DNA of 64,000 nucleotides from Actinomycetes bacterium (GCA_036274415.1 DASUFV010000064.1:2064-66063); one strand, 5' to 3'; positions 19,281 to 49,517 are shown, counted from the first letter of the stretch. Notes: a model not told the origin generated them from the letters alone. Translations and numbers: made by a program.

Positions 19281-20686
19281 GCGACATCACCCCGACGGTT
19301 CGGAACGCGGAGGAGTCCCTGGAGAAGATCTCGGGCTTCCTCGGGCTGTCCGGAACGCCTTCCGCCGACCCCGTGGCTCTTGCGGCCCAGCAGGCGGCCG
19401 AGATCCAGGCCCAGGCCGCGCAGGCAGCTGCGCAGGCCGCAGCTGGCTCGGTCCCGACCGAGGGCATCGAGAACCAGTTCCGGTCCTTCATGGACCAGAT
19501 CGCCGCGAAGCAGGCGGCCGCCACCGAGGCGCGGCTCAACGTCAAGCGCGAGCTCCGCAAGCGCGAGACCGACGAGCTGCTCTACATGTTCGCCAAGCAG
19601 GCCCGGGCCAAGAGCGTCGGCACGCCGCTCGACTTCTGGCTCGCCTCGGGCGGCCAGATGCGGATGGACGGCTTCGGCCAGCTTCCGGGCCAGGTCGAGC
19701 CGGACGTCGCCCGCGCGATCGACACGTCGACCGCGACGGCGCTGATCCGGCAGGACCTCGAGCCGATCATGTACGAGCTGTTCGTCCGGGAGTTCCCGGG
19801 CTTCGAGCGGTTCCGTCGTGAACCGGCCAACGGCCTGACCCACACCTGGAACCAGGTGACGAGCTACGGCGACGCCCAGTTCATGGGTGAGCTGGGTACC
19901 GTCACCGACGACCGCAGCAACTACGTCCGGCAGACGACCAACGTCGCGATCATCGCGACGCGGCGCGGCGTCTCGCTCAAGTCGCAGTTCGCGGTCATCG
20001 CGGGCGGCGCCGGGTTCAACCCCGAGCAGCTCGAGCTCCTGGGCGGCAACCGGGCCCTGGCGCACCGGATGCAGTACCAGATCTTCTCCGGCCACTCGAC
20101 GGACAACACGGGCACAGCGAACAACGAGCTGGGTCTCTACGACCCCAACGCGTTCACCGGCCTGCGCTCGATCCTGAACACGGCGCGGGCGAAGAACGTC
20201 GACCCCCTCGCGTCCACGCCGCAGGACATCCGCCGGGCGATCAACCAGGCGGCGGTCGAGGTCATCCAGCAGGGCGGCCGGGTCTCCATGATGTGGGGTT
20301 CGCCCCTCGACAAGGAGGTCTTCGACGCCCAGCAGGACAAGAACGTCCAGTACATCAACAGCCTGGTCAACGTCGCCGTCGGCGTGACCACGAACGCGGT
20401 CAACACCGTGTTCGGCGCGCTGCCGTACGGCGTTCTCGTCGGTGACGCGATCGGGTCGTACGTGCCGGAAGTCCTGCCCTCTGGCTGGACCAACGCGCGG
20501 GACCTGTACCTGCTCGACGAGTCGACGATCACGATGCCGTACCTGGGCTCCGAGGGTCCGACGATCCTCGACATCCCGATCGGCATCAGCGGCCAGCTGA
20601 CGCACCTGTTCATCATCTTCGGGATGTGGGGTCTCGCCGTGAAGGCGCCGACCTTCAACAACAAGGTGCGCATCCGCGCCAGCTGA
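19277..20686 (+). CDS. major capsid protein (HK97-fold type, with an N-terminal Q/A-rich delta-like region)
   Basis: 469 aa immediately after the protease. ATGA overlap. A strong terminator follows. Confidence 0.75.
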   Translation: MSDITPTVRNAEESLEKISGFLGLSGTPSADPVALAAQQAAEIQAQAAQAAAQAAAGSVPTEGIENQFRSFMDQIAAKQAAATEARLNVKRELRKRETDELLYMFAKQARAKSVGTPLDFWLASGGQMRMDGFGQLPGQVEPDVARAIDTSTATALIRQDLEPIMYELFVREFPGFERFRREPANGLTHTWNQVTSYGDAQFMGELGTVTDDRSNYVRQTTNVAIIATRRGVSLKSQFAVIAGGAGFNPEQLELLGGNRALAHRMQYQIFSGHSTDNTGTANNELGLYDPNAFTGLRSILNTARAKNVDPLASTPQDIRRAINQAAVEVIQQGGRVSMMWGSPLDKEVFDAQQDKNVQYINSLVNVAVGVTTNAVNTVFGALPYGVLVGDAIGSYVPEVLPSGWTNARDLYLLDESTITMPYLGSEGPTILDIPIGISGQLTHLFIIFGMWGLAVKAPTFNNKVRIRAS

Positions 20687-27600: not shown

Positions 27601-30504
27601 ATCGGTGGTCGCGAGCAGATCCTGACCCGCGCCGCGCGGGCTCGTCGTATCGCGGGTCGCGCACAGCAGGAAGTCACCGCCCTGCGCGAGCTCGAGTCGC
27701 AGCGCTCAGAAGCACGTCAGGTGGCGCGCCTCACCCGTAGCGCTGCGCCGGGTACGGATGAAGCGAACCAGTACGCCGCGGCGACCGAGCGGATCCGCGA
27801 GCTTCGGCCCGCGATCGGCGAGCAGCGTGAGGTCGCCGGACGGCGTGTTGCTGAGGCGCAGGTAGCCCAGGGCAAGATCCTCACTACCGGCCAGCAGGTT
27901 ACGGCGCAGGCGGTCGGCCTCGGCGGCATCATCGCCGGTACCGCGACCTTCTCGTCGGCCATCGCGGCGTTCCAGTTGGCCACGCAGGCTGGCGCTGCTG
28001 CGCTCACGCCACTCGTCGACGCTCTGACTGGCTTCCCGGCGGCGATCGAGCGGTCGACCACGGCTGTCCGCGATGCGATCACCCAGTCGCGGGGTCAGGT
28101 TGGCGTTGGCGTTGCGGCGGCCGTAGCGCCGACCGGCCTGTCGGCCCAGTTCCTCGATCAGACCGGCGGCAACTTCGTCCAGACCGCCGTCAACCGCGCC
28201 GCTCAGGCAGCCGCCCAGCAGGCGACCGACATCATCCGGTCGCAGGGCGCTCTCCGTGGTGGCGACCGCGGACTGTACGAGGGTGTTGGCGGCCTGTTCG
28301 GCACCAACATCGGCACGGAGCTGTTCGGCGGTCAGGCAGGCTTCCTGCAGGAGATCCAGGCCCAGCTGGAGGCGCTGGATCCGCGTCGGGCGACGCTGGG
28401 TGGCGGGATCAACCAGCTGCGGGGCCCGAACAACGTCGGGACTGGCACGGACCCTGTTGGCGACCTGCTGTTCGGTCGAGGTGGTGGCGACCGAGGCGTG
28501 CTCGGCCAGTTCACGTCGCCTCCGGCAGAGATCACGAACAACGAGAAGGAACGCCAGCGGCTGGTTATCGAGCAGAACAAGGTCGTCGACGAGCTCAACC
28601 GCAGCCTGCGCTCAGCCGCCGACTACGCTGGCGACGCGTCGGAAGCGTTCCAGCTGACGACTCGGGCGACGAAGGAACAGACCGACGCCATGATCGCGTC
28701 GGCCGCGGCGATCAGCGACGAGGCGAAGACCCGCGCACAGGGCCTTGCTCGCGCTGGCGTCACGGTCCTCGGCCCCGGCGGGCGCGCGCTGCAGGGACGC
28801 GACTTCGAGGCGTTCGCTCGCCAGCAGGCTCGCGGCCAGCTGATCCAGGACCCAGCACTCCTGCTGCGCCAGACTGAGCCGCAGCGCCGGGCGCGCGCGG
28901 AGCAGCTGCGGCGCCAGGGCGAGTTCACCCGCCGTGAGGATCTTCCGGCCGCGTTCGCGCTGCAGCAGCTGGCCAATCCCCCGCTCCGCTTCGGGACGAC
29001 CTTCAACGCGCAAGGCCAGGGGCTGGAGAACAGCGCTGAGGGCCGCGCCACACTCCAGAACATCGCCAAGTACAGCCAGTTGGCTGCCGATGCCTCAGCG
29101 GACAACGCCCGGGTGTTCGACATGGGCATGTCGGCGCTCGAGAAGATCGTCTCGCGGCTCGACAACCCGACGCTCGCGGGCGGGATCACGCCACGAACCA
29201 CGGCCCGGCGTCCGTCGGGTCCGGGCTTCGTGCAGGCCACGCAGCAGCAGGCTGGCCCGAACCTCACCGCATTCCGCGGCCTCATCTCCGACATCGGCGA
29301 GATCGGCACGCAGATCGCCGACATCCAGTCGGGCCTGAACCTGCGCCAGGTCAACCTGCAGGTCAAGGAGTACAACAACCAGATCCGGATCACGCAGCGC
29401 TCGCTGCAGGACGCTAACGACTTCTGGGCGGCGATCCACGGCAACGTCAGCGACACGGTCGGTGGGCTGCAGGGCCAGAACGCCCTGCTGGAACGCCAGA
29501 ACCAGCTCCTCAGCCGTCGCGCCCAGCGGCTGGCGTTCAAGAGCGAGGACATCGGCTTCAAGCAGGCCGACCTGCAGTTCCAGGCTCAGCAGCTGCAGTT
29601 CCAGCTGTCCCAGCGCCAGATCAACTTCCAGCGTGCCGTGGCTGGGTTCAGCGCGCCGGGCTCAACGCCGGAGGAGCGCGCCGCGCGGATCAACGAGGCG
29701 AAGGTCGAGGCCGACTTCGCCCAGAAGCAGCTCGACCTCCAGATCAAGATCGCCGACATGGCTCGCGAGCAGCTCGAGATCGCGAAGCAGCAGGCGGGCG
29801 TCAACCGCGAGATCTTCGCCAACTCGGTCCAGCAGCAGGACAACCAGTTCGCGATCCAGATGATCGAGGCGCAGCGCGCCGTGCAGGACATCGCCGCCCA
29901 GCTGTCGCTGCTGCAGGAAGGTCGCGCGGTGGTCATCGACACAGCCGCGGCCGAGGAGGCGATCGAGCGCCTGCGCAAGCGCCAGGCCCGCCTCATCGAG
30001 GCTGCGCAGAGCTACATCGAGCAGGGTCAGGAGGTCCGCAGCCAGGTGCTGTCCGACATCAACGACCTGCAGGCGGCCACCGGCAAGGGCTTCAGCTCGC
30101 TGGTCAGCAACGTCCAGAAGGCATGGAGCGAGGCGTTCCGCAGCTCGTACACGAACTACCTGCTGCCGCTGATGAACTCGCTCAACCAGCTGGGCAGCGC
30201 CAAGTACGGCAACTACGGTGCGCCGGGCGCCTACCGGCCGCAGGCTGAGGGCGGTATCCACGATGTCAGCACGCCGACGCGGTTCATGGCAGGCGAGGCT
30301 GGCCACGAGAAGGTGCTCGTGATCCGCAATCCGCAGGAGGGCATGTTCATGCCGTCTGGCGGGATGGGTGGCGGCACGGTCGTCAACATCGGCGGGATCA
30401 CGATCTCGGTCGAGGGTGGCGGCGGCACCGAGGAGGATGCCGAGCGCCTCGCCGCGGCCGTTGAGCGCCGGATCTCGACCAAGCTCGCCATGATTGGAGG
30501 TTAG
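24658..30504 (+). CDS. tape measure protein
   Basis: 1948 aa. GGAGGT precedes the ATG. Long Q/A-rich coiled-coil segments. Located between the G/GT chaperones and the minor tail genes. Confidence 0.9.
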   Translation: MAGETIDAIRVGLGIDRTALRQDIAAANREFNALPSQKTVNIHVAVHTPTRAVEQAYESIQKQFDFRQRQAGSEALRISPRMVVDPRVMRDFRRDIERNMRQSAQQGQAIRVPVRFNGDVRSFIASVQQAVRNETVTIGVKGDWRGGPGGGTGGGGVGRTGPSQRPPTGGAPAAQPEPARSRPATARARGTATEVRSGDVYEAQEQPPRTPRQQRQTQRRQRMGAGAPAGAPAPLPAAVMPADARGRVDIGNVRQSSSGVQELQGEERTAYISQQRARPTRPMGQFRQRGERVLTAADLLQISNQQEVNEYRSQDERRQAARARGMSPRDVATREHIRSGFHSLDPDLAALYDRLMDPEPNFSFDQFIQAAEAGREAYGTAFHGSPKQVRRQRAVARGTKKGDINEVDPTLLVFDAALDAAREFQRNMMDPLNAVRAGDNKRRGRGGKVGQIGGRNAGRLASTSMAPEDLEERIRKESRRAARLRQQAAPDIVAGQAYGGGAEIIAQGLAPSIAGGQGLTRGSGVKARGRAQIDIDIEKMNAGQMTREEFERRHRARIQGFAEGGRMRRNWGDNEYMRGLYGRDIGASFGAPEGHENVARANTTEWKRTRRNQLREQPFCAHCGIGRAEARSRGIPLSADKIRSQAQGGNPFDPSNLQTLCSSCNSRKSGSSAQPLMTWTHPRPNIGSHPKWSQVPEGEFLPTGKFFGVSSLSEMLSRSKGQGQVEKRAEGGQVKHGGLLQRMAQAGHQPSITLVGERGPELLVTDEKTGETEVVPTHKVPTWLQRAQGSAKGLAKDMTERGGGGRMARMWKWGGGYAEGGQLRMRDTLGRPARATEARMTGGVLAGGDITRVFVVNWPNLLASPGQFAQSMGQAQAQAARSNPQQARAASPPPGQQQNQQGPQGPGAGAPAGAPAPGATTAARLGRVDPLLRVRARRTGFQAVGALEEELQTAQAGIGEALQRTPVRALSVAFGQIAQNVIGGREQILTRAARARRIAGRAQQEVTALRELESQRSEARQVARLTRSAAPGTDEANQYAAATERIRELRPAIGEQREVAGRRVAEAQVAQGKILTTGQQVTAQAVGLGGIIAGTATFSSAIAAFQLATQAGAAALTPLVDALTGFPAAIERSTTAVRDAITQSRGQVGVGVAAAVAPTGLSAQFLDQTGGNFVQTAVNRAAQAAAQQATDIIRSQGALRGGDRGLYEGVGGLFGTNIGTELFGGQAGFLQEIQAQLEALDPRRATLGGGINQLRGPNNVGTGTDPVGDLLFGRGGGDRGVLGQFTSPPAEITNNEKERQRLVIEQNKVVDELNRSLRSAADYAGDASEAFQLTTRATKEQTDAMIASAAAISDEAKTRAQGLARAGVTVLGPGGRALQGRDFEAFARQQARGQLIQDPALLLRQTEPQRRARAEQLRRQGEFTRREDLPAAFALQQLANPPLRFGTTFNAQGQGLENSAEGRATLQNIAKYSQLAADASADNARVFDMGMSALEKIVSRLDNPTLAGGITPRTTARRPSGPGFVQATQQQAGPNLTAFRGLISDIGEIGTQIADIQSGLNLRQVNLQVKEYNNQIRITQRSLQDANDFWAAIHGNVSDTVGGLQGQNALLERQNQLLSRRAQRLAFKSEDIGFKQADLQFQAQQLQFQLSQRQINFQRAVAGFSAPGSTPEERAARINEAKVEADFAQKQLDLQIKIADMAREQLEIAKQQAGVNREIFANSVQQQDNQFAIQMIEAQRAVQDIAAQLSLLQEGRAVVIDTAAAEEAIERLRKRQARLIEAAQSYIEQGQEVRSQVLSDINDLQAATGKGFSSLVSNVQKAWSEAFRSSYTNYLLPLMNSLNQLGSAKYGNYGAPGAYRPQAEGGIHDVSTPTRFMAGEAGHEKVLVIRNPQEGMFMPSGGMGGGTVVNIGGITISVEGGGGTEEDAERLAAAVERRISTKLAMIGG

Positions 30505-36654: not shown

Positions 36655-38240
36655 TGCCGACCGGCTCCACGATCGCCATCAAGATCGCGGGCGTGAACGT
36701 CACGAGCTATGTGCTGCCGTCGACGTGCCGCTTCGAGAGCCAGCTCAACGCCGTTGCTGGGACGTGGCAGTTCACGCTCAAGGACGTCGACCACACGCTG
36801 GGTCCGTTCGAGACCGGCTCGATCATGGACCTGACCGTTGACGGGACGCAGCTGTACCTCGGCTTCTTGCTCCAGGTGAGCCGGACCTACCCGTTCCCGG
36901 CGATGGACACGGTCAATACGCCGCCTGACGAGACCCCTCGCTACTGGACGTTGCGCGGCGTCGACTTCAACCGGCTGTTCGACAAGCGGGTGCTGCGCAA
37001 CCCGGCCGACTTCTATCACCAGCTGCCGAACTTCCCGAGCACGTCGATGGACGGCGACCTGATCCAGCAGCTGTGTGATGACTTCCTCGACCTCGACGGG
37101 CTGGTCGACTACACCACCCATGTCGAGAACATCCGACCGCCGTTCGAGGGGCAGGACGAGGGCGCCTGGCTGGCGCAGGGCACGCCGTGGCGCAAGCAGA
37201 TGGAGGACTTCGCCCAGTTCTCGGGCGCCGTCTGGTACCTCGGCCCGAAGAACGCCACGACGGCGTACCTCTGGTACAAGGAGATCGAGGACGCTGTGCA
37301 TCGCTGGGGGTTCAGCGACAACCCCAACTACAACTCGATCAGCGCGTCTCCGACGAGCTTCCAAGGCGCCACGATCGGCCCGCGCGAGATCGAGGCGACC
37401 GAGGCAGGTGACCACATGGTCAACGACGCCCTGATCTGGGGAGGCAGCTCGTGGGCGGGCGGCACCGGCGGCATCGTGTTCGCCCGGGAGACCAACGCGA
37501 CCTCGATCACCGAGCACGGCCGCTGGCAGTACGCCGAGGTCCACATCGGCGAGGAGGGCTACAAGCTGCAGGAGGGCGTTGACGTTCGCGCCGACGTCAT
37601 CGTCAACGGTCCCCCTGGTGCGGTCGATGCCGACCAACAGCGCGGTCTGCGCTACCCCCAATGGAACGTGCGCCTGACGTGGTTCGCCCATCAAGTGCCG
37701 ACCATCTCAGGCGTTCCGGATCACCTCTACCCGGGCGCGCTGTCGACGATCGAGCTGCAGGTGTTCGAGGACGGCGATCCACTCACGCTGCTGTTGCCGT
37801 GCCGCCAGATCACGATCACGATCCCATCGCTCGATCCGAATGGCGATGGCTACGTGCAGTTCGGCGGGTTCTTCGGCCTGCAGCCTGACGATCCGTACAC
37901 GCTCTGGCGGTTCCTGCTCAAGGCTCAGCGGACGGCGCAGCAGGCGCTCATCGCAGTCGTCGACGAGAACTCAGATGCGACCCAGTACGGCGCAATCGGC
38001 AACTTCATCCCGACACCGGCGCCGAACGGGTCCGCAACTGTGTTCACCTGCGCGTTCGGCTACATCGCGGGGACCACGAGGGTCTACCTCAAGCCAGCCG
38101 GATCCACTGGCGGCGGCCTGCTGCTCTATCCGGGCCTCGACTACACCGAGTCGGACCCGATCGCGGGGCAGATCACCCTCAACGTGGCGCCCGCCACGGG
38201 CTCGCAGCTGATGGTCAACTGCCGGACGCTCGGCTCGTAG
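36654..38240 (+). CDS. minor tail protein (N-terminal module shared with 31615..36654; Dit-like?)
   Basis: 528 aa. ATGA overlap. IAIKIAGVNV...FTLKDVDH...GF.LQV.RTY aligns to an internal segment of the upstream protein. Confidence 0.65.
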   Translation: MPTGSTIAIKIAGVNVTSYVLPSTCRFESQLNAVAGTWQFTLKDVDHTLGPFETGSIMDLTVDGTQLYLGFLLQVSRTYPFPAMDTVNTPPDETPRYWTLRGVDFNRLFDKRVLRNPADFYHQLPNFPSTSMDGDLIQQLCDDFLDLDGLVDYTTHVENIRPPFEGQDEGAWLAQGTPWRKQMEDFAQFSGAVWYLGPKNATTAYLWYKEIEDAVHRWGFSDNPNYNSISASPTSFQGATIGPREIEATEAGDHMVNDALIWGGSSWAGGTGGIVFARETNATSITEHGRWQYAEVHIGEEGYKLQEGVDVRADVIVNGPPGAVDADQQRGLRYPQWNVRLTWFAHQVPTISGVPDHLYPGALSTIELQVFEDGDPLTLLLPCRQITITIPSLDPNGDGYVQFGGFFGLQPDDPYTLWRFLLKAQRTAQQALIAVVDENSDATQYGAIGNFIPTPAPNGSATVFTCAFGYIAGTTRVYLKPAGSTGGGLLLYPGLDYTESDPIAGQITLNVAPATGSQLMVNCRTLGS

Positions 38241-38292
38241 GCGACTATCGTCTCCCTGTCGCAAGACACCTACCTCGTCGCACCATAGGGTC

Positions 38293-38517
38293 ATGTCCTA
38301 CCCCGTTGAGGTTGAGGTCGTCCTCGAACGCAACGCGCGGACCTTCGAGGTCCACCGCCGCGTCCGCCTCCCAGGTCGCCCGGGGTTGATGTCGTACGAA
38401 CAGTGCAACCGTGACGCCACGGACACTTTCCTCGAGATCCCCGATCTCACCGAGATCAAGACCAAAGAGGAGCTCTGCGGCATCTGCTTCGACCTCTCTG
38501 AGCTGATCGAGGAGTAG
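38293..38517 (+). CDS. hypothetical small protein
   Basis: 74-aa ORF between the tail genes and the lysis genes. Confidence 0.45.
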   Translation: MSYPVEVEVVLERNARTFEVHRRVRLPGRPGLMSYEQCNRDATDTFLEIPDLTEIKTKEELCGICFDLSELIEE

Positions 38518-38521
38518 CCCC

Positions 38522-39646
38522 ATGGGCGCGTACGAGCCGATGAGCGCGGTCATGTCGAAGGCCGTCTCGCTTGCCGAGAAGAACCTCTCCTTCCAGCAGT
38601 TCGGCCAGGTCGACGACGAGAGCGCGTGGGACGGCGCCGCGGCCTGTACGCACGTCGTGTGCCAGTTCCTCGCGTTGCTGTGGACGGGGCGGCGCCTGAC
38701 GATCGACCAGGTGAGCGCCAAGGCTGGCTACCCGTACCGGCCGCGCAACAGCGCCGGTCAACCGCGCGGCATGAACAACACCGAGCTCGCCCGGTTCTTC
38801 TCGAACATGGGCCTGCCATACGTCATCCGCTTCGGCCAGACGTTCGACACGATGGCGTCGTTCCTCAAGTACGGCCCGGTGTTCCTAGGTGTCCGCCACG
38901 GCTCGATCCCCGAGTGGAAGGACTTCGTCTACTTCGGCACTCGCGCCGACGGCAGCCCCAACGGCTATGCGCGCCGGTACGGCAGGACGCAGCTGACGGG
39001 CTTCGAGAACGGCCGCCACGCGGTGCTGCTGCTCGGGCGGCGGCAGTACGTGAGCGACTCGGCTTCGGCCACCGTGACGTGCGACACGATCGTCAGGCGC
39101 GGCGCGACGATCTCGTCCCAGAAGCTCGGTGCGATCAGCAAGGGCGCGACGGTCCACATCACGGCCACCGTGGACGGCAGCCATTGGTCCGGGTGTGGCA
39201 AGGACGGCACGCGGTGGCACCGGATCACCTCGATCAATGGCAAGTCGACCAGGGCGCGCTACGGGCGCGCGTACGCCTACATCGCGTCTGGCCTGACGAC
39301 GTCGCCCGGCCCGGTGGTGCTTCGCACTGACGTGTGGCGCAAGGATCCCAATCACAACAGCGGGTCGCGGCCTGAGAACCCGCCCTACGACGTCATCCGC
39401 AATGGCCAGTCCGAGGTCGAGTACCTGCACTACCGGACCAAGCTCGGGTCGACGCTGTACGGAGCGATCCCAACACGGCGACTCGGCGTGGTAGGGCTCA
39501 GCGAGGCCGAGGACATTGCCGCGGAGCTTGGGCTTGATGACGAGCCTCTGACCATCCCCGAGAACCTCGGGGAACCACCCGACGAGGACGGTGCAGATGA
39601 TGCCGTTCCGAGCGACGAAGCAGTAGGGAGTGAACTTCATGGATGA
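38522..39646 (+). CDS. putative endolysin: N-terminal Cys/His peptidase-like domain plus central SH3b-like domain
   Basis: AAACTHVVCQ...GRHAVLLLG suggests a catalytic Cys/His pair. TVHITATVDGSHWSG...WHRITSINGKSTRARYG is SH3b-like. Confidence 0.55.
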   Translation: MGAYEPMSAVMSKAVSLAEKNLSFQQFGQVDDESAWDGAAACTHVVCQFLALLWTGRRLTIDQVSAKAGYPYRPRNSAGQPRGMNNTELARFFSNMGLPYVIRFGQTFDTMASFLKYGPVFLGVRHGSIPEWKDFVYFGTRADGSPNGYARRYGRTQLTGFENGRHAVLLLGRRQYVSDSASATVTCDTIVRRGATISSQKLGAISKGATVHITATVDGSHWSGCGKDGTRWHRITSINGKSTRARYGRAYAYIASGLTTSPGPVVLRTDVWRKDPNHNSGSRPENPPYDVIRNGQSEVEYLHYRTKLGSTLYGAIPTRRLGVVGLSEAEDIAAELGLDDEPLTIPENLGEPPDEDGADDAVPSDEAVGSELHG

Positions 39647-39896
39647 GCGATATGTGCAGGCGGGGATCAGGTTCGTCATCGCGTTGATCCTGGGCGCCGT
39701 GGGCGCTGGGGCCGCGAACTACACGATCCTGTCGAGCCTCGTCAGCGATCCGATCTACTCGACCATCGTGGTCGCGGTGATCTTCGGCGTGCTGAACTTC
39801 ATCAGCAAGGCCGTCGGCGGGCCGACGGTGCCGTCCCCGATCAACGTGGGGCTCGGTGCCGCAAAGCCGGAGCGCCCCAACCCTCTGTCGGTGTAG
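39630..39896 (+). CDS. holin-like membrane protein (2 TM)
   Basis: Hydrophobic segments IRFVIALILGAVGAGAA and IYSTIVVAVIFGVLNFI. Overlaps the 3' end of the lysin gene. Confidence 0.5.
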   Translation: MNFMDERYVQAGIRFVIALILGAVGAGAANYTILSSLVSDPIYSTIVVAVIFGVLNFISKAVGGPTVPSPINVGLGAAKPERPNPLSV

Positions 39897-40057
39897 ATGG
39901 ATGCCGGAGCGGCGCGCCAGCGGGAACCGTTCGGCTGGCCGCTCCGGTGTCCAACTTGCACCGGGGGGTCATACTTCGGGAGGCTGAAGGTCCCCGGTGA
40001 TGCCGCCGGGAACAAGATCAGTTTGAAGTGCCCTAACTGCGGGTCGAGGCTGGTGGC

Positions 40058-40381
40058 ATGTCGCCCGAACAGCTGATCACGACCGGCAGCGGCATCCTCA
40101 TCCTCGCGGCAATCGTGATCGCGTTCTACACCGACCGTGTTCTGACGAAGTCAAACCACGAGGCGTCGATCAAGGCCCTGACTGAGATGTGGGCCGACCG
40201 GTTCGCCGATGAGCGAGCTGAGAAGGAAGCCTGGAAAGCCCAGGCTCAGCAGCTTGCCCCGGCCGTCGCCGAGATGGCCGAGGAGCTGGAGGCAGCCAAT
40301 GCACGAGACGAGGCGTGGAAGACCGCGTTCCTGTCGAAGATTGACTCGCCCGAAGGCGCGCCCGATCGGCGTCAGCGATGA
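40058..40381 (+). CDS. membrane-anchored coiled-coil protein (lysis accessory or spanin-like?)
   Basis: N-terminal TM ILILAAIVIAFY, then EAWKAQAQQLAPAVAEMAEELEAANARDEAWK. Confidence 0.45.
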   Translation: MSPEQLITTGSGILILAAIVIAFYTDRVLTKSNHEASIKALTEMWADRFADERAEKEAWKAQAQQLAPAVAEMAEELEAANARDEAWKTAFLSKIDSPEGAPDRRQR

Positions 40382-40599
40382 GTTGGCTCAGCCGACTGAT
40401 CCTCGCTAGGGTCGCCCGGATGCATCAGGAGCCGCCCGTGCGCAACCCGGATCCAGAACTGGTCGACCACGCGATCAAGACATCGCGCGCGCTGTCCAAG
40501 TCAGACCGTGCGCTGGAGGCTCGCCGTCGCCTGAACCTCGAGCTCGAATATGCCGAGGATGTCATTCGGAGAGCACGTGTCGATCGAGCTTCTGGTTAG
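40378..40599 (+). CDS. hypothetical protein
   Basis: ATGA overlap. 73 aa. Confidence 0.4.
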   Translation: MSWLSRLILARVARMHQEPPVRNPDPELVDHAIKTSRALSKSDRALEARRRLNLELEYAEDVIRRARVDRASG

Positions 40600-40939
40600 C
40601 CTTGCGAGCACCGTCATCCTCGCCCTCCTCGTACTTCGTGGGATCCGGGCGACCTACAAGATCCACCTCATCTACGCGCAGGACGAGCGCCACCCGAAGT
40701 CGTCGATCCTGGCCACGATCCGCTACGGGTCGCTCATCAAGGTCCTCGCTGCGCTGTGGTTTCTGATCTGGGCGATGGTGGGTATCTTCCTCACGCCCGA
40801 CAACGAGGTTCTACTGTTTGCCCGGGTAGGTGGCGTCGTGTGGGCGGCCTTCGTGCTGGATCTGCCGACCCGCTACCTGAACATGATCCATTCCATCCAG
40901 GACGGGGCAACGGTTCCGCCAGGAGACACCCATGACTGA
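40550..40939 (+). CDS. integral membrane protein (3-4 TM)
   Basis: Hydrophobic segments ELLVSLASTVILALLVL, AALWFLIWAMVGIFL and GGVVWAAFVL. Start could be ATG 40550 or 40559. Confidence 0.5.
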   Translation: MPRMSFGEHVSIELLVSLASTVILALLVLRGIRATYKIHLIYAQDERHPKSSILATIRYGSLIKVLAALWFLIWAMVGIFLTPDNEVLLFARVGGVVWAAFVLDLPTRYLNMIHSIQDGATVPPGDTHD

Positions 40940-41624
40940 CAGCATGATCCAGCTGAAGGGGCGGCACGTCACTGCTGACCGGCGCCTGGATCGGATCCCC
41001 GAGTTCGATCCGAAGTCGCGTCGCTTCGGGGTTGCCCCCGTGCTGCCCGACAAGCCACCGCGCTCCTTCACGTGGCGCACCTCGTTCGTGCTCGACCAGG
41101 GGCAGGAAGGCGCTTGCGTGGGCTTCGGCTGGAGCCACGAGCTGCTGGCGCGCCCGATCATCCAGCCCGGAGTCAACAACGCCTTCGCCCAGCAGCTGTA
41201 TCGCGAGGCGCAGCAGCTCGACGAGTGGCCCGGCGAGGACTACTCGGGCACGTCGCTGCTGGCAGGCGCCAAGGCGGTCCAGGCGCGCGGGCACATGAAG
41301 GAGTACCGCTGGGGCTTCAGCATCGACGACCTGATCATGGCCCTCGGCTACCAGGGGCCAGTCGTGCTCGGGCTCAACTGGTACACGGGCATGATGAACA
41401 CCGATGCCGAGGGCTACATCCGGCCGACCGGCCAGGTCGAGGGCGGCCACTGCATCGCCGCGCTCGGGTGGAACGTCCGGCTCAACCGGGCCGAGCTGGT
41501 CAACAGCTGGGGAGTCGACTGGGGCAACGGTGGCTTCTGCTACATCGGCCGCGATGACCTCGAGCGCCTGCTCCACGAGCAGGGTGAGCAGTGCATCCCG
41601 GTGGGGCGCGTCAAGGTCGTCTAG
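40932..41624 (+). CDS. papain-family (C1A) cysteine peptidase
   Basis: QGQEGACVGFGWS carries the Gln and the Cys-Trp active site. GGHCIAALGW carries the His. NSWGVDWGNGGFCYI is the Asn-Ser-Trp-Gly motif. Confidence 0.75.
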   Translation: MTDSMIQLKGRHVTADRRLDRIPEFDPKSRRFGVAPVLPDKPPRSFTWRTSFVLDQGQEGACVGFGWSHELLARPIIQPGVNNAFAQQLYREAQQLDEWPGEDYSGTSLLAGAKAVQARGHMKEYRWGFSIDDLIMALGYQGPVVLGLNWYTGMMNTDAEGYIRPTGQVEGGHCIAALGWNVRLNRAELVNSWGVDWGNGGFCYIGRDDLERLLHEQGEQCIPVGRVKVV

Positions 41625-42023
41625 GTGGACGCATCCGACTACTTCGAGAACGCCATCCTCAACTGGTTCCGCGGGACAGCGTTCCCGGCGGCAACCGGCT
41701 CGGTCTGGGTCGCAGCCTTCATCACAGCCACCACCGATGCTGGCGGCGGTACGGAGGTCAGCGGCGGTTCATACGCCCGCGTGGAGATCCCGAAGGCATC
41801 GGGCGAGTGGTCGGCGCCGTCAGGGGGCACGATCAACCAAGTCGACGACGTCGTGTTCCCGACCGCCACCGCCAACTGGGGAACGATCACCCACATCGCC
41901 CTGTTCGACGCATCGTCGGGCGGCAACATGCTCGTCCATGGCGCCCTGAACGCCTCCCGAACGATCAACAGCGGAGACACCCTCAGACTGCCGTCAGGAG
42001 AACTGTCACTCGCCGCAGCGTAA
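41625..42023 (+). CDS. hypothetical Gly-rich protein
   Basis: GTG start directly after the upstream TAG. 132 aa. Confidence 0.5.
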   Translation: MDASDYFENAILNWFRGTAFPAATGSVWVAAFITATTDAGGGTEVSGGSYARVEIPKASGEWSAPSGGTINQVDDVVFPTATANWGTITHIALFDASSGGNMLVHGALNASRTINSGDTLRLPSGELSLAAA

Positions 42024-42042
42024 TAGGGTCGCCCAGAGAAAA

Positions 42043-42084
42043 CCCGCCGGGTCCATGGAGGGGCACCCGGCGGGTTTCCTGTTT
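42043..42084. terminator. strong bidirectional intrinsic terminator at the junction of the two arms
   Basis: AAA-CCCGCCGGGT-ccatggaggggc-ACCCGGCGGG-TTTCCTGTTT. Confidence 0.7.
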
Positions 42085-42266
42085 GAGGGGCCGGACTTCA
42101 GCCGTTGGCCCCGGTCTCCTCCACGATCCCGGGACGGCCTCCCGCTCCTGTCACGGTCACGGGCGACTCCTCGGCTGCAATGTACTTGACAGGCACCCCG
42201 AGACGCAAGTAGCCTACGCAGCGTTCCCGATGGCCGTCGGGGACATCGAGATGACGGAATGCCCCT

Positions 42267-42434
42267 CTAATCCGGGGGCAACGTAGCGCCGGACTTCATT
42301 CGCGGGTCCACCCCGAGCACGATCGCCCCCGTGTTGTAGGTCATCCCCTCGGTCTGGATGATCTGGCTCTGGCCATTCAGCCAGGTGACCTCGATCTGCC
42401 CCTTCTTCAACTCGACCGGCTTCTTCGCCGCCAT
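42267..42434 (-). CDS. hypothetical small protein (55 aa)
   Basis: AGGAGGtggaacgATG on the minus strand. Coding part of track ORF 42267..42518. Confidence 0.45.
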   Translation of the reverse strand: MAAKKPVELKKGQIEVTWLNGQSQIIQTEGMTYNTGAIVLGVDPRMKSGATLPPD

Positions 42435-42460
42435 CGTTCCACCTCCTGCTGCCTGATACC

Positions 42461-42481
42461 AAAAAGCCCCGGCGAACCGGG
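42461..42481 (-). terminator. candidate minus-strand terminator
   Basis: Minus-strand reading CCCGG-ttcg-CCGGG followed by GCTTTTT. Confidence 0.3.
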
Positions 42482-42745
42482 ACTTCTGGCTCGAGGCGGG
42501 ACTCCTGTATACCCGCACCGGGGCCGACGTCCTACAGTCGCTAGGACGACCCCAGACTCACCGTTACCGTGGCACCCGCCAGGCTCTTACCCCTGACGGC
42601 GGATTGACCTCTTTGACCCTGCCCGGGCCCGCTCGTCCACTCTGACCGGCCATCCTCATCGGCGTGGCTTGTTCCTCGAGACGCCGCCCGACAAGACGAT
42701 CATCCCGATGTTCGCCGTGAAGCAGTTCCGGGTGCCAGCCGTTCG

Positions 42746-43147
42746 CTAGTACCAGTCGCGGATCTTGTCGACCGCTGCGTAGAGGATCACCATGACATCG
42801 CGCGCGGTGTAGCGTTCGGCGTGCCCACGTGTCGCTGCCCGCGCGCATAGCCACTCGGCGGTGTCGGGGATCGGCTCACCGAGGACCATCACCCGGTAGA
42901 GCACTTCGTATTCGCGTAGTGAACGCTCGCGCAGGCGCTTGACGGCCCGCTTGAGCCGCGCTCGGTCCTCGTCGCCGTCACGGCTCGTCGTTCCGTCCAG
43001 CCAGTGGACGAACTGCGGGTGGAGCTCGGGATTGCCGTCGTCTCCTAGGTCTCGCAAGTGGAGCCTGAGCGGGACGTTGCTCGTCCAGAGATCGCGAAAC
43101 CAGCCGATCCACTGAGCGGTTTCCGACAGGTGCGTGCCCGTGATCAC
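42746..43147 (-). CDS. hypothetical protein, possible HTH DNA-binding protein
   Basis: 133 aa. C-terminal RERSLREYEVLYRVMVLGEPIPDTAEWL. Confidence 0.5.
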   Translation of the reverse strand: MITGTHLSETAQWIGWFRDLWTSNVPLRLHLRDLGDDGNPELHPQFVHWLDGTTSRDGDEDRARLKRAVKRLRERSLREYEVLYRVMVLGEPIPDTAEWLCARAATRGHAERYTARDVMVILYAAVDKIRDWY

Positions 43148-43539
43148 AGTTCCTCCTCCGCGTCGAAGTATGCGCGGACTTGCTGCTGCCAGATCGCATC
43201 CGGATCGTGCTCGCCTACTCGGGCCAGCGTCTCTCCCAGGATGAAGCTGTAAACGGGGACGTTCTTGTCGATGGCCGACTCGACGACGTGGCCTGTGCCC
43301 CCCTCCATCATGCGGCCTGGCGCGAAGAACGCGAGCACCAGATCTGACGCCGCAACCATCTCGTTGTCACGCAGGAACGCTGCCCCTGGGCCAGCCGCGG
43401 GATCCGGCATGACCCAGCGGTACTCGAGGTGGACGGCATATGACCGGATGATCTCGCGGACGAGCCGCTCGAAACGCCCGGGATCCGACGCGTTGCCGCG
43501 GCGCAGCAGGACCGTCGTTTGGGCCGGGAGGGCGTCCAT
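43144..43539 (-). CDS. hypothetical protein (start uncertain)
   Basis: Track ORF 43144..43695 overlaps rusA for 124 nt, but GC3 is about 51% in that frame versus about 79% in the rusA frame. The gene is therefore placed at the first ATG after the rusA stop. Confidence 0.4.
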   Translation of the reverse strand: MDALPAQTTVLLRRGNASDPGRFERLVREIIRSYAVHLEYRWVMPDPAAGPGAAFLRDNEMVAASDLVLAFFAPGRMMEGGTGHVVESAIDKNVPVYSFILGETLARVGEHDPDAIWQQQVRAYFDAEEEL

Positions 43540-47312: not shown

Positions 47313-47496
47313 CGAGGACCCGCCGAGTGGCCTTGATCCTTGCGTTGAACCTGTTCACCGGATCAGCTCCGGTACCACGCACTGTGTCCCTGCCATCGAG
47401 GAGGTCTTCGACGTGCTTCCCCAGCGCCTCGATGACCTCCTCCAGCCCTTCACGGTAGACGCGGATCCGAGCCCTGCCGGTCTTGGCGTCCTCCAT
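47236..47496 (-). CDS. hypothetical protein
   Basis: 86 aa. Overlaps its neighbours at both ends. Confidence 0.4.
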   Translation of the reverse strand: MEDAKTGRARIRVYREGLEEVIEALGKHVEDLLDGRDTVRGTGADPVNRFNARIKATRRVLDEAIRTQAEQGWQEAHSGQQERSDT

Positions 47497-48479
47497 CAGT
47501 GAGCGTCGGTGTCTTCGTCGTACGTCGCCAGCGCCACGGCGTCTGCTTCGCCGACCGGTTGATCCTTGGCGTCGACGAGATCGCTGATCAGGGCGCCAGC
47601 GTCATCGCCGGACATCTTGGCCAGGGCGCCCTTGATGACGTCCTGCACGTCGCCATCCTCGGGAAGGACGAGCTTAGCAGGCAAGTACTTGTTGAGGAAG
47701 CGGTCGACGAATGTCTCGGGCGTCAGCTCGAGGTCCTTGATCAGGCTCCCGATCTGGGCCATCTGCGCCCGGGTGATGGCCTCCGACTTGCCGCCGCGCC
47801 GGACGCCGGTGATCTCCCGGCCCTCGACGCGGACGCCGCGGTCGGCAGCAGACCCGGCCTCGCGGTCGGCAGCACGCAGGTCGGCTCGGTTGTCGGACTC
47901 CAGGTCATCCTCGCCGCCGATCTGGAACAGCTTGATCAGCCAGTACTTCATGGCGGCGGTGAACGCCTTGTTAGCGCCCTTGTCGCCGGTGTCGTCGCCG
48001 TAGCCGAAGCCGACACCCGTGATCGAGTCGCCCGAGTCGCCGTCGATCACAGTGAAGCGGATCTTCAGCTTGGTGACCCAGCTGGTCCCACCCTTGGCGG
48101 TCTTGGTCTCGACCCACGACTCCTCGACAACGTCGGGGACGACCATGAGCCGGAGCGCCGCCATTCGGGGCCGGATGACGCCGTTGACCTGCTTATCGGT
48201 GATGTACTTGTAGCCGAAGTGCCTGTTCTCACCGGCAGGTTCCAGGGTCGGCAGCTCGGCCATGATCTGGGCGAGCTTGATGATCACCGGCCGCTTAGCC
48301 GTTTCGTCGAGGCTCGCCATGTCGTCCTTGAAGATACGCTCAGCCTCGGCCTTCGGGTCGATGAACTTGTGCTCGACTGTTTCGTCGTGAGGCTTGAGAT
48401 TGCACATCCCGTCCGGCGTCATCACGCCGCAGATCTGGCTCTCCAGCGGTTCCTTGGCCGCTGTCTTACGTGCGGGCAT
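47496..48479 (-). CDS. ERF-family single-strand annealing protein (putative)
   Basis: GVGFGYGDDTGDKGANKAFTAAMKYWLIKLFQIGGEDD resembles the ERF core. Sits next to an exonuclease. Confidence 0.55.
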   Translation of the reverse strand: MPARKTAAKEPLESQICGVMTPDGMCNLKPHDETVEHKFIDPKAEAERIFKDDMASLDETAKRPVIIKLAQIMAELPTLEPAGENRHFGYKYITDKQVNGVIRPRMAALRLMVVPDVVEESWVETKTAKGGTSWVTKLKIRFTVIDGDSGDSITGVGFGYGDDTGDKGANKAFTAAMKYWLIKLFQIGGEDDLESDNRADLRAADREAGSAADRGVRVEGREITGVRRGGKSEAITRAQMAQIGSLIKDLELTPETFVDRFLNKYLPAKLVLPEDGDVQDVIKGALAKMSGDDAGALISDLVDAKDQPVGEADAVALATYDEDTDAH

Positions 48480-48693
48480 TGGCCTCCTCGATCTTCAGGA
48501 TGAAGCTGCGGCGCGTCATATAGGGCTCCCACTGGCCCTGGTAGTCGTCGGGCATATTCCAGCCGCCGTCGTATTGCCACGTGTCTCCGGCCACGAACCG
48601 GCCGCGCGGGTTCGGATTGCCGAAACGATCAACGTATCGAGCGTGTTCCAGCCAGAGCGATCCATTGCCTGGCTCAATGACGAGGACGTTCAT
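48466..48693 (-). CDS. hypothetical small protein
   Basis: Internal ATG (MNVLVIEPG...) in an ATGA overlap with the exonuclease gene's stop. Confidence 0.4.
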   Translation of the reverse strand: MNVLVIEPGNGSLWLEHARYVDRFGNPNPRGRFVAGDTWQYDGGWNMPDDYQGQWEPYMTRRSFILKIEEANART

Positions 48694-49517
48694 CCGGTGT
48701 TCCTTGCCATGGGTGACTCCTTGTAGGCGGGGCAGATGTCGCGGTAGCCGCACCAACTGCACGCCCCTGACTTCAGTCCGTTGGCCGGGAAGATCCCGGC
48801 CTTGATCGACCGCATTGCGGTCTCTGCGATGTCAGCGAAGGCGATGATCGAGGCGTCCGAGACGGGGCCAGCGCTCTTGATCGGCACCATCTTGGGTTCC
48901 TTGGTCATCACCACGTGATCGAGTTCGACTCCCGACTCGATCTCGCCCGTCAGCTTCCGGTAGCCGATCGCGTAGCCGACCATGTTCAGCACGTATGCGT
49001 CGGCGCTCGACGGGCTCTTGGACGTGAACTTGTGGTCGATGACGGTGCGTCCCTTGGTCGCCAGGTCGAGCGTGCCGGTCCACGGGATGTCGTTGATCAC
49101 GAAGCTGATCGGCTGCTCGACGTACTCGGGGTCGATGGTCGGTGCCACCTCCTTGTGCCAGAGCTTGACGCCCCTGGCCCCCTTGTCCTTCCAGTCGCCC
49201 TTCTCGTTCTTGGTGTCCTCGGCGTCCTGCGCCTCGATGTCAAACGAGTCGCTGAACGCGTCGAGCACGACGTCGAGGGGCGCGTCCTGCGCCGTCTCGA
49301 GCTTGCCCACCATGTGGACCTCGATGGCGCGATGTCCGGCGGTGCCGGTGACCATCCGGAGTGCCGGTGGTCGCTTGAAGCGGTAGACGTACGCGTACTC
49401 CCACTGCCGTGCGCAGCGGAGGAAGGTGTTGAGGCTGGATCCGGACAGGACGTCGATTGGGCCGTCATCGACAGTGGGGAACAGGTCGATGCCGTCAAAC
49501 AGGTCCAGGTCGGTCAT
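48690..49517 (-). CDS. Cas4/RecB-like PD-(D/E)xK exonuclease with Fe-S cluster cysteines
   Basis: N-terminal FLRCARQWEY, VIDHKFTSKS and C-terminal CSWCGYRDICPAY, giving one N-terminal plus three C-terminal Cys. Confidence 0.65.
   Translation of the reverse strand: MTDLDLFDGIDLFPTVDDGPIDVLSGSSLNTFLRCARQWEYAYVYRFKRPPALRMVTGTAGHRAIEVHMVGKLETAQDAPLDVVLDAFSDSFDIEAQDAEDTKNEKGDWKDKGARGVKLWHKEVAPTIDPEYVEQPISFVINDIPWTGTLDLATKGRTVIDHKFTSKSPSSADAYVLNMVGYAIGYRKLTGEIESGVELDHVVMTKEPKMVPIKSAGPVSDASIIAFADIAETAMRSIKAGIFPANGLKSGACSWCGYRDICPAYKESPMARNTG

What the first reader, a model, noticed from the sequence alone, without database searches (positions are those of the whole stretch)
40932..41624. Papain-family C1 cysteine peptidase in the lysis cassette
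The 230-aa protein carries all three C1A signatures: QGQEGACVGFGWS, GGHCIAALGW and NSWGVDWGNGGFCYI. It lies downstream of a Cys-peptidase/SH3b endolysin, a holin-like protein and two further membrane proteins, at the very end of the late operon.

C1A peptidases are unusual in phage lysis modules. It might cleave a cell-envelope protein or peptide cross-link (an alternative to the LysB esterase used by mycolic-acid-host phages), process a virion or host protein, or be a moron toxin or effector.
Basis: partly seen in the sequence, partly recalled or inferred. Interest (0 to 1): 0.6.

Follow-up and report, generated by a model that had tools for sequence, protein, structure and literature searches.

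The report
Papain-type protease in phage lysis cassette
A phage gene sitting among the cell-bursting genes really does encode an intact papain-family (C1A) cysteine protease, but the same gene family is already annotated in dozens of phages, and its role in lysis is a reasonable, still untested guess.

Summary
Window 40932-41624 (+) encodes a 230-aa protein that passes Pfam's Peptidase_C1 cut-off. It keeps Gln56/Cys62/His173/Asn191/Trp193 and models confidently (pLDDT 91.6) as a papain fold closest to xylellain, a short bacterial C1A peptidase.

It is the second-to-last gene of the rightward late operon. Upstream lie a putative endolysin, a 2-TM holin-like protein and other small proteins. It overlaps the upstream membrane-protein gene by 8 nt and has no secretion signal.

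It is not new. NCBI already names the identical protein "C1 family peptidase". Homologues in 56 cultured-phage records are annotated "cysteine protease/peptidase". A 2015 paper counted the Gordonia phage GMA2 homologue as a fourth putative lysin.

Most likely it is an accessory, holin-dependent lysis enzyme acting on peptide bonds of the cell envelope. It recurs in the lysis cassettes of several unrelated actinophage lineages. Relatives are fused to GH25 muramidase, VanY or peptidoglycan-binding domains, two of them in the endolysin position of phage contigs.

Family-wide, however, the context is heterogeneous (ribonucleotide reductase, replication, terminase genes; nuclease fusions), so an intracellular protease role stays open. 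The LysB-substitute and moron ideas are not supported.

The parts
40932..41624 (+). C1A (xylellain-type) cysteine peptidase gene, 230 aa, with no signal peptide or TM segment
   Evidence: ORF; Pfam PF00112 above cut-off; phrog_16701 at 1e-54; AF2 pLDDT 91.6; Foldseek top hit xylellain 3OIS, TMq 0.68; maximum 19-residue hydropathy 1.1, so no TM segment
40921..40925 (+). Shine-Dalgarno AGGAG, 6 nt before the ATG. The start overlaps the stop of the upstream gene by 8 nt (ATGACTGA), which suggests translational coupling
   Evidence: Sequence read directly
40932..41081 (+). Conserved N-terminal extension (residues 1-50) with the motif RLDRxPxFDxxSR...W. Asp26 is invariant, Ser29 is kept in 84/92 and Trp48 in 90/92. 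It may be a pro-region or regulatory segment by analogy with xylellain (inference)
   Evidence: Alignments; pLDDT 66-92 over this stretch
41097..41135 (+). Active-site motif QGQEGACVGFGWS, with oxyanion-hole Gln56 and catalytic Cys62
   Evidence: Positions; invariant in 92/92; aligned with cathepsin B QSRCGSCWAFG
41442..41471 (+). GGHCIAALGW, containing catalytic His173
41502..41546 (+). NSWGVDWGNGGFCYI, containing Asn191 (papain Asn175 equivalent) and Trp193
38522..39646 (+). Putative endolysin, 374 aa. The N-terminal domain is probably a papain-superfamily (C39/C70-like) Cys peptidase with invariant Cys42 and His166. The C-terminal part is an SH3b-like domain
   Evidence: SH3_3 E 6e-4; NCBI name 'SH3 domain-containing protein', and one homologue carries PF13529; 7/31 homologues hit C70 or C39_2; fold search not significant; no match in cultured phages
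39630..39896 (+). Holin-like protein, 88 aa, about 2 TM segments
   Evidence: Hydropathy; weak Phage_holin_4_2 and Phage_holin_3_6 hits
39897..40076 (+). 59-aa zinc-ribbon-like protein (CxxC...CxxC)
   Evidence: Weak zinc-ribbon Pfam hits
40058..40381 (+). 107-aa protein with an N-terminal TM anchor and a charged helical tail
   Evidence: Hydropathy
40378..40599 (+). 73-aa soluble protein of unknown function
40550..40939 (+). 129-aa membrane protein with 3-4 TM segments; its gene overlaps the start of the peptidase gene
   Evidence: Hydropathy. It is conserved in the same position in the syntenic relatives L009 (127 aa) and L012 (157 aa)
41625..42023 (+). Gp80-like (PF23140) small structural-type protein, the last gene of the rightward block
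   Evidence: Pfam 1.4e-42 and phrog_240
42040..42084 (+). Terminator-like hairpin (13-bp G+C-rich stem, then CCTGTTT) that closes the late operon
   Evidence: Sequence; MFE -36.4 kcal/mol, z -2.6. The pattern scan missed it because the loop exceeds 8 nt

Best explanation
The gene encodes a catalytically intact, cytoplasmically made, xylellain-type C1A cysteine peptidase that acts as an accessory lysis enzyme. It is expressed with the late operon and translationally coupled to the upstream membrane-protein gene. It has no export signal, so it would reach the wall only once the holin has permeabilised the membrane. There it would cut peptide bonds of the envelope (peptidoglycan stem or cross-bridge, or wall-bound protein) alongside the main endolysin. 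Shown: the fold, the catalytic residues, the lack of an export signal, the operon position, recurrence in lysis cassettes, and fusion of relatives to cell-wall hydrolase and wall-binding domains. Inferred: holin dependence, the substrate, and possible latency through the conserved N-terminal extension.
For: Identity as a C1A peptidase. Position: between the holin-like and membrane genes and the operon terminator, with an 8-nt overlap and a good SD. The same gene lies inside lysis cassettes with different endolysin types: M23 in Mufasa8; C39 plus GH or amidase plus LysB in Lilbeanie, Aleemily, Mareelih and GMA2; GH25-like plus LysM in L011; Amidase_2 directly upstream with a 4-nt overlap in L015; beside a peptidoglycan-binding protein in ZL12; and in the syntenic relatives L009 and L012. 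Relatives 40-52% identical are fused to Glyco_hydro_25 (three proteins, one with G5), VanY and PG_binding_1. Two of these fusions lie in phage contigs, after the large tail-like ORFs in L095 and after a 536-aa ORF in L096. Viral structure hits include C1-like domains in proteins named 'Peptidoglycan binding-like', 'N acetylmuramidase' and 'Lysozyme'. Fused and lysis-located members are scattered over the family tree, implying repeated recruitment. There are no conserved disulfides, which fits folding in the cytoplasm. Dyson et al. 2015 reached the same 'putative lysin' reading for GMA2 Orf38.
Against: No member has been tested, and no MEROPS C1 enzyme is known to cleave peptidoglycan; the wall-active papain-like enzymes reviewed in PMC10318531 are NlpC/P60 and CHAP. 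Family-wide, only about 6 of 64 non-redundant viral loci have a Pfam-recognisable wall hydrolase within three genes. That is roughly the chance level, while ribonucleotide reductase, NrdI, Thy1, terminase and replication genes are commoner neighbours. This count is a lower bound, because Pfam also fails to recognise this window's own putative endolysin. Other fusions are to SNase (two proteins) and DUF1353. The neighbouring 'endolysin' of this window is itself only weakly identified.
Confidence: 0.45

Rival explanations
1. It is an intracellular protease that degrades or cleaves host cytoplasmic proteins, for host takeover, amino-acid recycling or inactivation of a defence or regulatory protein. 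On this view its place next to the lysis genes in this lineage is just late-operon cargo.
For: There is no export signal and no conserved disulfides. In most of the wider family the gene lies among ribonucleotide reductase, nucleotide-metabolism, replication or terminase genes or tRNA islands. Two relatives are fused to SNase nuclease, a degradative pairing. C1A enzymes are ordinarily protein- and peptide-directed (established knowledge of MEROPS C1).
Against: It does not explain the five independent fusions to wall hydrolase or wall-binding domains, nor the repeated placement between lysin A and holin. There is no PADLOC or NCBIfam link to defence or counter-defence. An unrestrained cytoplasmic papain would be toxic during virion assembly.
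Confidence: 0.3
2. It is a processing protease for phage proteins. It might activate or release the endolysin, holin or antiholin, or one of the membrane proteins, or mature the adjacent Gp80-like or fibre proteins.
For: It is tightly coupled to the upstream membrane-protein gene. In relatives L009 and L012 it is followed by Gp80-like and large fibre-like (Laminin_G_3) genes. Gordonia phages have a conserved ~123-aa partner directly upstream.
Against: The partners differ between lineages while the protease is conserved. Many family members stand alone, far from lysis or tail genes. Fusion to GH25 or VanY is not expected for a maturation protease.
Confidence: 0.12
3. It is a functional substitute for LysB, acting on an outer mycolate or lipid layer, or it is a moron toxin/effector expressed from the prophage.
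For: No LysB-like gene was noticed in this cassette. Shaeky's homologue sits in a tRNA island with its own RBS and terminator, which looks moron-like.
Against: It co-occurs with lysin B in Lilbeanie and Aleemily. It has a peptidase fold, not an esterase fold. Here it is embedded in the late operon, with no promoter-like site in 38000-43500 and translational coupling. There is no secretion signal for an effector.
Confidence: 0.04

Closest known systems
Xylellain (Xylella fastidiosa C1A cysteine protease, PDB 3OIS) and the 'short bacterial, xylellain-type' C1A group
   Same: It is the best structural match (Foldseek E 8e-10, TMq 0.68). Both are short single-domain enzymes without the eukaryotic I29 prodomain, both have a short N-terminal extension, and both keep the Gln/Cys/His/Asn catalytic set. 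Kordis & Turk 2023 state that this type was acquired by tailed phages (PMC10380794).
   Different: Sequence identity is only about 15%. At 230 aa it is shorter than the 267-residue xylellain chain. It is phage-encoded and late-expressed. Whether the N-terminal extension blocks the cleft as reported for xylellain (my recollection of Leite et al. 2013, cited) could not be checked, because no model coordinates were available.
Actinophage 'cysteine protease/peptidase' genes (phrog_16701): GMA2 Orf38, Mufasa8 gp26, Lilbeanie gp40, Aleemily gp29, Mareelih gp109, Barnyard gp94, Wakanda gp80
   Same: They belong to the same family (28-50% identity over at least 88% of the length for most; phrog E 1e-54), with the same size and catalytic residues. 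In Gordonia and Arthrobacter phages the gene is likewise in the lysis cassette. GMA2 Orf38 has already been called a putative lysin.
   Different: No cultured phage is more than 50% identical, and there is no nucleotide match. The upstream partner here is a multi-TM protein, whereas in Gordonia phages it is a conserved soluble ~123-aa protein. In cluster H mycobacteriophages and Streptomyces BE-type phages the gene lies outside the lysis cassette.
Cysteine-peptidase catalytic domains of endolysins (CHAP/C51, NlpC-P60/C40, and the LysA N4 RipA-like and N5 C39-like domains of Payne & Hatfull 2012)
   Same: They share the papain superfamily (clan CA) and Cys-His chemistry. They occur in lysis cassettes and are combined with glycosidase or amidase and wall-binding modules, as relatives of this protein are.
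   Different: This protein belongs to a different family (C1, not C40, C51 or C39). It is stand-alone, without a wall-binding domain. Peptidoglycan cleavage has never been shown for a C1 enzyme.
Cathepsin B and other eukaryotic C1A peptidases
   Same: Cathepsin B gives the best sequence matches in the PDB over the His/Asn half (E 1e-9). The catalytic residues are the same.
   Different: This protein has no signal peptide, no I29 prodomain, no occluding loop match and none of the conserved disulfides. It is about 16% identical in structural alignment.

Membership tests
Peptidase family C1 (papain family; Pfam PF00112, MEROPS C1A) | Profile score above the curated family threshold | tested here: met
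   26.6 bits against a gathering cut-off of 20.7, E 7.7e-6. Only the C-terminal 80 residues align to the HMM. NCBI independently names the identical protein 'C1 family peptidase'.
Peptidase family C1 (papain family; Pfam PF00112, MEROPS C1A) | Catalytic residues in the papain order: Gln (oxyanion hole), Cys, His, Asn, plus the Trp after Asn | tested here: met
   Gln56, Cys62, His173, Asn191 and Trp193 are aligned with the cathepsin B motifs. They are invariant or nearly invariant in 92 relatives.
Peptidase family C1 (papain family; Pfam PF00112, MEROPS C1A) | Two-lobed papain fold (helical L domain carrying Cys, beta-barrel R domain carrying His/Asn) | tested here: met
   AF2 pLDDT 91.6 with helix 62-72 starting at Cys62 and C-terminal beta strands. 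There are 269 PDB hits at E<=1e-3; all 50 listed are C1A enzymes.
Peptidase family C1 (papain family; Pfam PF00112, MEROPS C1A) | Proteolytic activity sensitive to E-64 or abolished by a Cys mutation | not testable with these tools
   This needs purified protein.
Classical secreted/lysosomal C1A (papain, cathepsins) | Signal peptide, I29-type prodomain and conserved disulfides | tested here: not met
   No hydrophobic N-terminus, no I29 hit, and no conserved Cys other than the catalytic one. The protein is therefore filed with the short bacterial/xylellain type, not the classical type.
Phage endolysin (peptidoglycan hydrolase of the lysis cassette) | Encoded in the lysis cassette next to a holin | tested here: met
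   It lies about 1 kb downstream of the 2-TM holin-like gene in the same operon. The same holds in Gordonia, Arthrobacter and metagenomic relatives.
Phage endolysin (peptidoglycan hydrolase of the lysis cassette) | Catalytic domain belongs to a family with demonstrated peptidoglycan-cleaving activity | tested here: not met
   The only family matched is Peptidase_C1. The wall-active papain-like families reviewed are NlpC/P60 and CHAP. No paper on a C1 endolysin was found.
Phage endolysin (peptidoglycan hydrolase of the lysis cassette) | Domain occurs in modular lysins together with other wall hydrolase or wall-binding modules | tested here: inconclusive
   This is true for relatives: GH25(+G5)+C1 in three proteins, VanY+C1 and C1+PG_binding_1, with two of them in phage contigs. 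It is not true for this single-domain protein. SNase and DUF1353 fusions also exist.
Phage endolysin (peptidoglycan hydrolase of the lysis cassette) | Degrades host sacculi or causes lysis when given access to the wall | not testable with these tools
   This is an experiment.
Lysin B (mycolylarabinogalactan esterase) | Serine esterase/cutinase fold, taking the place of LysB | tested here: not met
   The fold is papain. The homologue coexists with lysin B in Lilbeanie and Aleemily.

The most novel reading that the evidence does not exclude
The xylellain-type C1A domain is an unrecognised class of endolysin catalytic module. It would be the first MEROPS C1 enzyme to cut peptidoglycan peptides or wall-anchored proteins, used either as a stand-alone second lysin (as here) or fused to GH25, VanY or wall-binding domains. 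It may be held latent in the cytoplasm by its conserved N-terminal extension until the holin fires.
Probability: 0.35. Interest if true: 0.6.

Novelty: new member of a known kind. Interest (0 to 1): 0.33.

Why it matters
If the C1A domain does act on the cell wall, it would add a new catalytic family to the endolysin toolbox. That matters for enzybiotic design against Actinobacteria. It would also explain why many actinophages carry an extra 'cysteine protease' in their lysis cassettes. If instead it is an intracellular protease, it would point to a widespread, unstudied phage strategy of host-protein cleavage: the family has about 635 clusters (50% identity) at E<=1e-30 and occurs in phages of GC 0.34-0.73. 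Either way, this particular gene is one more member of a family that public annotation already names correctly, so the gain from this window alone is modest.

Tried and rejected
1. Nucleotide similarity of 38000-43000 to cultured phages gave no match. tblastn of the putative endolysin against phages also gave none, so the host could not be named beyond 'Actinomycetes' (NCBI label).
2. I tested for a universal two-gene module of a small upstream protein plus the protease, and rejected it. The Gordonia ~123-aa partners are homologous to each other but not to this window's 129-aa membrane protein or to Mufasa8 gp25.
3. I tested whether lysis-cassette linkage is a family-wide property. It is not supported: about 6 of 64 viral loci have a Pfam-recognisable wall hydrolase within three genes.
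4. I tried to prove that the 374-aa neighbour is a C39-type lysin. phmmer against Gordonia C39 lysins, hhalign (probability 1.3%), a PDB profile search and a fold search all failed or were non-significant. Only weak C70 and C39_2 hits among homologues remain.
5. A conserved C203-C221 disulfide (possible extracytoplasmic stabilisation) was rejected for lack of covariation.
6. NCBIfam and PADLOC gave no hits.
7. The afdb50 fold library was unavailable, and model coordinates could not be read. So I could not check whether the N-terminal extension occupies the active-site cleft.
8. I considered complementarity between the C1 gene and a LysA lacking a peptidase domain. It fits Barnyard and L011, but not Mufasa8 (M23 + C1), the Gordonia phages (C39 + C1) or this window.

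Full report
**1. The observation**

Window 40932-41624 (+) is an ATG-initiated ORF of 230 codons. It has an AGGAG Shine-Dalgarno 6 nt upstream. Its start overlaps the stop codon of the preceding ORF (40550-40939) by 8 nt.

The protein passes Pfam's curated threshold for Peptidase_C1 (26.6 against 20.7 bits). It matches PHROG 16701 'peptidase' end to end (E 1e-54). Over its His/Asn half it matches cathepsin B chains in the PDB (E 1e-9), with the Gln/Cys motif aligned in register though weakly.

An AlphaFold2 model built on 65 homologues is confident (pLDDT 91.6, pTM 0.89). Its PDB neighbours are C1A enzymes in all 50 listed hits, led by xylellain, a short bacterial C1A protease (E 8e-10, TMq 0.68).

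In an alignment of 92 family members, Gln56, Cys62 and His173 are invariant. Asn191 is kept in 90/92 and Trp193 in 91/92.

**2. The surroundings**

The window is essentially a siphovirus-type phage genome. It carries a terminase, portal, major head protein, a 1948-aa probable tape-measure ORF (by size and position only) and large tail proteins on the + strand. Leftward Erf and exonuclease genes follow from about 42 kb, and there are no tRNAs. An identical protein is deposited as 'MAG TPA: C1 family peptidase [Actinomycetes bacterium]' on a 66.6-kb contig.

After the tail genes come:
- a 374-aa protein (38522-39646);
- an 88-aa protein with about 2 TM segments and weak holin-family hits;
- a 59-aa zinc-ribbon-like protein;
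- a 107-aa protein with an N-terminal TM anchor;
- a 73-aa soluble protein;
- a 129-aa protein with 3-4 TM segments;
- the C1 peptidase;
- a Gp80-like protein (PF23140, E 1e-42);
- a -36.4 kcal/mol hairpin followed by a T-rich tail.

The peptidase is thus the second-to-last gene of the late operon. It has no hydrophobic segment.

The 374-aa protein is only a probable endolysin:
- Its SH3_3 hit is below Pfam's cut-off.
- Its N-domain family has invariant Cys42 and His166.
- Seven of 31 members weakly hit Peptidase_C70 or C39_2.
- Profile-profile, PDB and fold searches were not significant.
- It has no relative in cultured phages.

The proteins in the same position in the syntenic relatives L009 and L012 are unrelated to it. 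The position is therefore mosaic, as endolysin positions often are.

**3. Distribution of the family**

The exhaustive search finds 4973 cluster representatives at E<=1e-3 and 635 at E<=1e-30. Fifty-six cultured-phage records carry a homologue, all below 50% identity. They are 20 Mycobacterium, 15 Streptomyces, 15 Gordonia, 2 Arthrobacter and 3 jumbo Xanthomonas/Stenotrophomonas phages, plus one mangrove phage. Most are already annotated 'cysteine protease' or 'peptidase'. Eighty IMG/VR loci span GC 0.34-0.73, so the hosts are of many phyla.

The literature already records both facts:
- Kordis & Turk 2023 note that short xylellain-type bacterial C1A peptidases were acquired by Myoviridae and Siphoviridae (PMC10380794).
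- Dyson et al. 2015 listed GMA2 Orf38 (cd02619 peptidase) as one of four putative lysin genes (PMC4524720).

I found no experimental study.

**4. Evidence bearing on function: gene context**

The homologue lies inside the lysis cassette in these phages:
- Arthrobacter phage Mufasa8: M23 lysin A, two small proteins, then the protease.
- Gordonia phages Lilbeanie, Aleemily, Mareelih and GMA2: C39 lysin A, amidase or glycosidase lysin A, a ~123-aa protein, the protease, the holin, and in two of them lysin B.
- Streptomyces phage ZL12: after the tail genes, two genes from a peptidoglycan-binding protein.
- Metagenomic L011: a GH25-like plus LysM endolysin.
- L015: Amidase_2 directly upstream, with a 4-nt overlap.
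- The syntenic relatives L009 and L012.

It lies elsewhere in these:
- cluster H mycobacteriophages;
- Streptomyces Wakanda, next to the terminase;
- GX15bay;
- Shaeky, in a tRNA island;
- XacN1, next to RNR;
- L013, among early genes;
- L014, among replication genes.

**5. A systematic context test**

I took 64 non-redundant IMG/VR loci and scanned 191 neighbours (within three genes, 120-650 aa) against Pfam. Amidase_2 appeared 4 times, Phage_lysozyme once and PG_binding_1 once. By comparison, the RNR small subunit appeared 9 times, the RNR large subunit 4, NrdI 3, Thy1 3, several terminase subunits, and DUF1353 3 times.

About 9% of loci with a recognisable wall hydrolase is close to what a random gene of a 60-70-gene phage would show. 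Lysis linkage is therefore lineage-specific, not family-wide. The count is a lower bound, because Pfam also misses this window's own putative endolysin.

**6. Evidence bearing on function: domain fusions**

Among longer relatives (40-52% identical in the C1 part by BLASTP) I found these architectures:
- GH25+G5+C1, and GH25+C1 in two further proteins;
- VanY+C1;
- C1+PG_binding_1;
- C1 with SNase, in two proteins;
- C1+DUF1353.

The GH25+G5+C1 protein lies in a phage contig after large tail-like ORFs and is followed by small genes (L095). The VanY+C1 protein lies in a phage-like contig after a 536-aa ORF, a few genes before the strand switch (L096). The viral structure library also returns C1-like domains in proteins named 'Peptidoglycan binding-like', 'N acetylmuramidase' and 'Lysozyme'.

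In a neighbour-joining tree the wall-related fusions and the lysis-located genes are scattered. This suggests repeated recruitment. The tree is star-like and has no support values, so this point is suggestive only.

**7. Protein features**

There is no signal peptide or TM segment. No cysteine is conserved other than Cys62, and C203 and C221 do not covary. The enzyme is therefore built for the cytoplasm.

The N-terminal 50 residues are as conserved as the active site: Asp26 in 92/92, Ser29 in 84/92 and Trp48 in 90/92. Xylellain is reported to be regulated by an N-terminal segment; this is my recollection of Leite et al. 2013, a paper cited. I could not test whether the extension occupies the cleft here, because no coordinates were available.

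**8. Most likely mechanism**

I favour an accessory, holin-dependent lysis enzyme (confidence 0.45). It would be made late in the cytoplasm, possibly latent. It would gain access to the wall when the holin fires, and there cleave peptide bonds of peptidoglycan or of wall-bound proteins beside the main endolysin.

The main rival (0.30) is an intracellular protease acting on host proteins. The non-lysis contexts and the SNase fusions favour it. A processing role for phage proteins (0.12) is possible. The LysB-substitute and moron/effector ideas (0.04) are disfavoured by co-occurrence with lysin B, the peptidase fold, translational coupling and the lack of a promoter-like site.

**9. Comparison and novelty**

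The protein is a member of MEROPS/Pfam family C1; score, catalytic residues and fold were all tested and met. It belongs to the short xylellain type, not the classical secreted type: it has no signal peptide, I29 prodomain or disulfides.

It may work like the cysteine-peptidase modules of endolysins (CHAP, NlpC/P60, LysA N4/N5). It cannot be filed as an endolysin, because no C1 enzyme has demonstrated wall activity.

It is a new member of a known, already annotated kind. Interest is modest (0.33). The open and testable point is whether C1A is a genuine endolysin catalytic class (probability about 0.35; interest if true 0.6).

Noticed in passing
Relatives P0130, P0195, P0235, P0249 (site A) and P0172, P0122 (site B); equivalent to window residues 61/62 (about nt 41112-41117) and about 102/103: Inteins (Hint plus LAGLIDADG domains) interrupt this phage C1 peptidase at two different sites. 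One is immediately before the catalytic Cys62, which serves as the +1 splice nucleophile (…EGA|CLPAGTLV…VHN|CVGF). The other is before the conserved YxGTS motif. Inteins are unusual in a protease.
   Followed up: partly
window 41625-42023 (+): The last gene of the late operon is a 132-aa Gp80-like protein (PF23140 'Podophage GP4 fiber I protein', E 1e-42; phrog_240 'head protein'). In relatives L009 and L012 it is followed by further large fibre-like genes (Laminin_G_3, 1058 aa). In that lineage the lysis cassette is therefore embedded among tail/fibre genes.
   Followed up: partly
L003:4615-4986, L004:4597-4980, L007:4627-4995, L008:4609-4980: Gordonia phages of four groups share a conserved soluble ~123-aa protein directly upstream of the C1 gene, with a 4-nt overlap (36-54% identity to each other). 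It could be a partner or inhibitor of the protease. It is unrelated to this window's upstream 129-aa membrane protein.
   Followed up: partly
window 38522-39646 (+) compared with L009:4706-6510 and L012:4551-5366: The 'endolysin' position is mosaic. Closely syntenic relatives carry unrelated proteins there, none recognised by Pfam. The window's N-domain defines a family of about 235-aa stand-alone proteins with invariant Cys42 and His166 and only faint C39/C70 similarity. It may be an undescribed papain-superfamily lysin domain.
   Followed up: partly
window 1-64000: The window is a near-complete siphovirus-like phage genome (terminase 4447-5961, portal 12304-13602, major head 19277-20686, a 1948-aa probable tape-measure ORF at 24658-30504, Erf 47496-48479, exonuclease 48690-49517). 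It is deposited as part of an 'Actinomycetes bacterium' MAG, so it is probably a phage contig binned with its host. No cultured phage has nucleotide similarity to the 38000-43000 segment tested.
   Followed up: partly
window 16700-18049 (+): A 449-aa glycosyltransferase (phrog_2170, E 1e-37) lies inside the head/structural gene block, between the portal and major head genes.
   Followed up: no
window 39897-40076 (+): A 59-aa zinc-ribbon-like protein (CxxC…CxxC) is encoded between the holin-like gene and the membrane-anchored 107-aa protein. That is an odd component for a lysis cassette.
   Followed up: no
IMG/VR loci L015-L094; XacN1 (L100): In larger phages the C1 peptidase gene is repeatedly found near ribonucleotide reductase genes (small subunit 9 times, large subunit 4, NrdI 3, among 64 loci; also XacN1). 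DUF1353 recurs both as a neighbour (3 times) and as a fusion partner (P0169).
   Followed up: partly
Mycobacterium phage Barnyard / cluster H (H29-H50): Payne & Hatfull 2012 single out Barnyard gp39 as the only mycobacteriophage lysin A without an N-terminal peptidase domain. All 20 mycobacteriophage records carrying this stand-alone C1 gene resemble Barnyard in genome size (69-72 kb) and gene position, and Barnyard gp94 is one of them. The C1 enzyme may supply the missing peptidase in trans, although the gene lies far from the lysis cassette there.
   Followed up: partly
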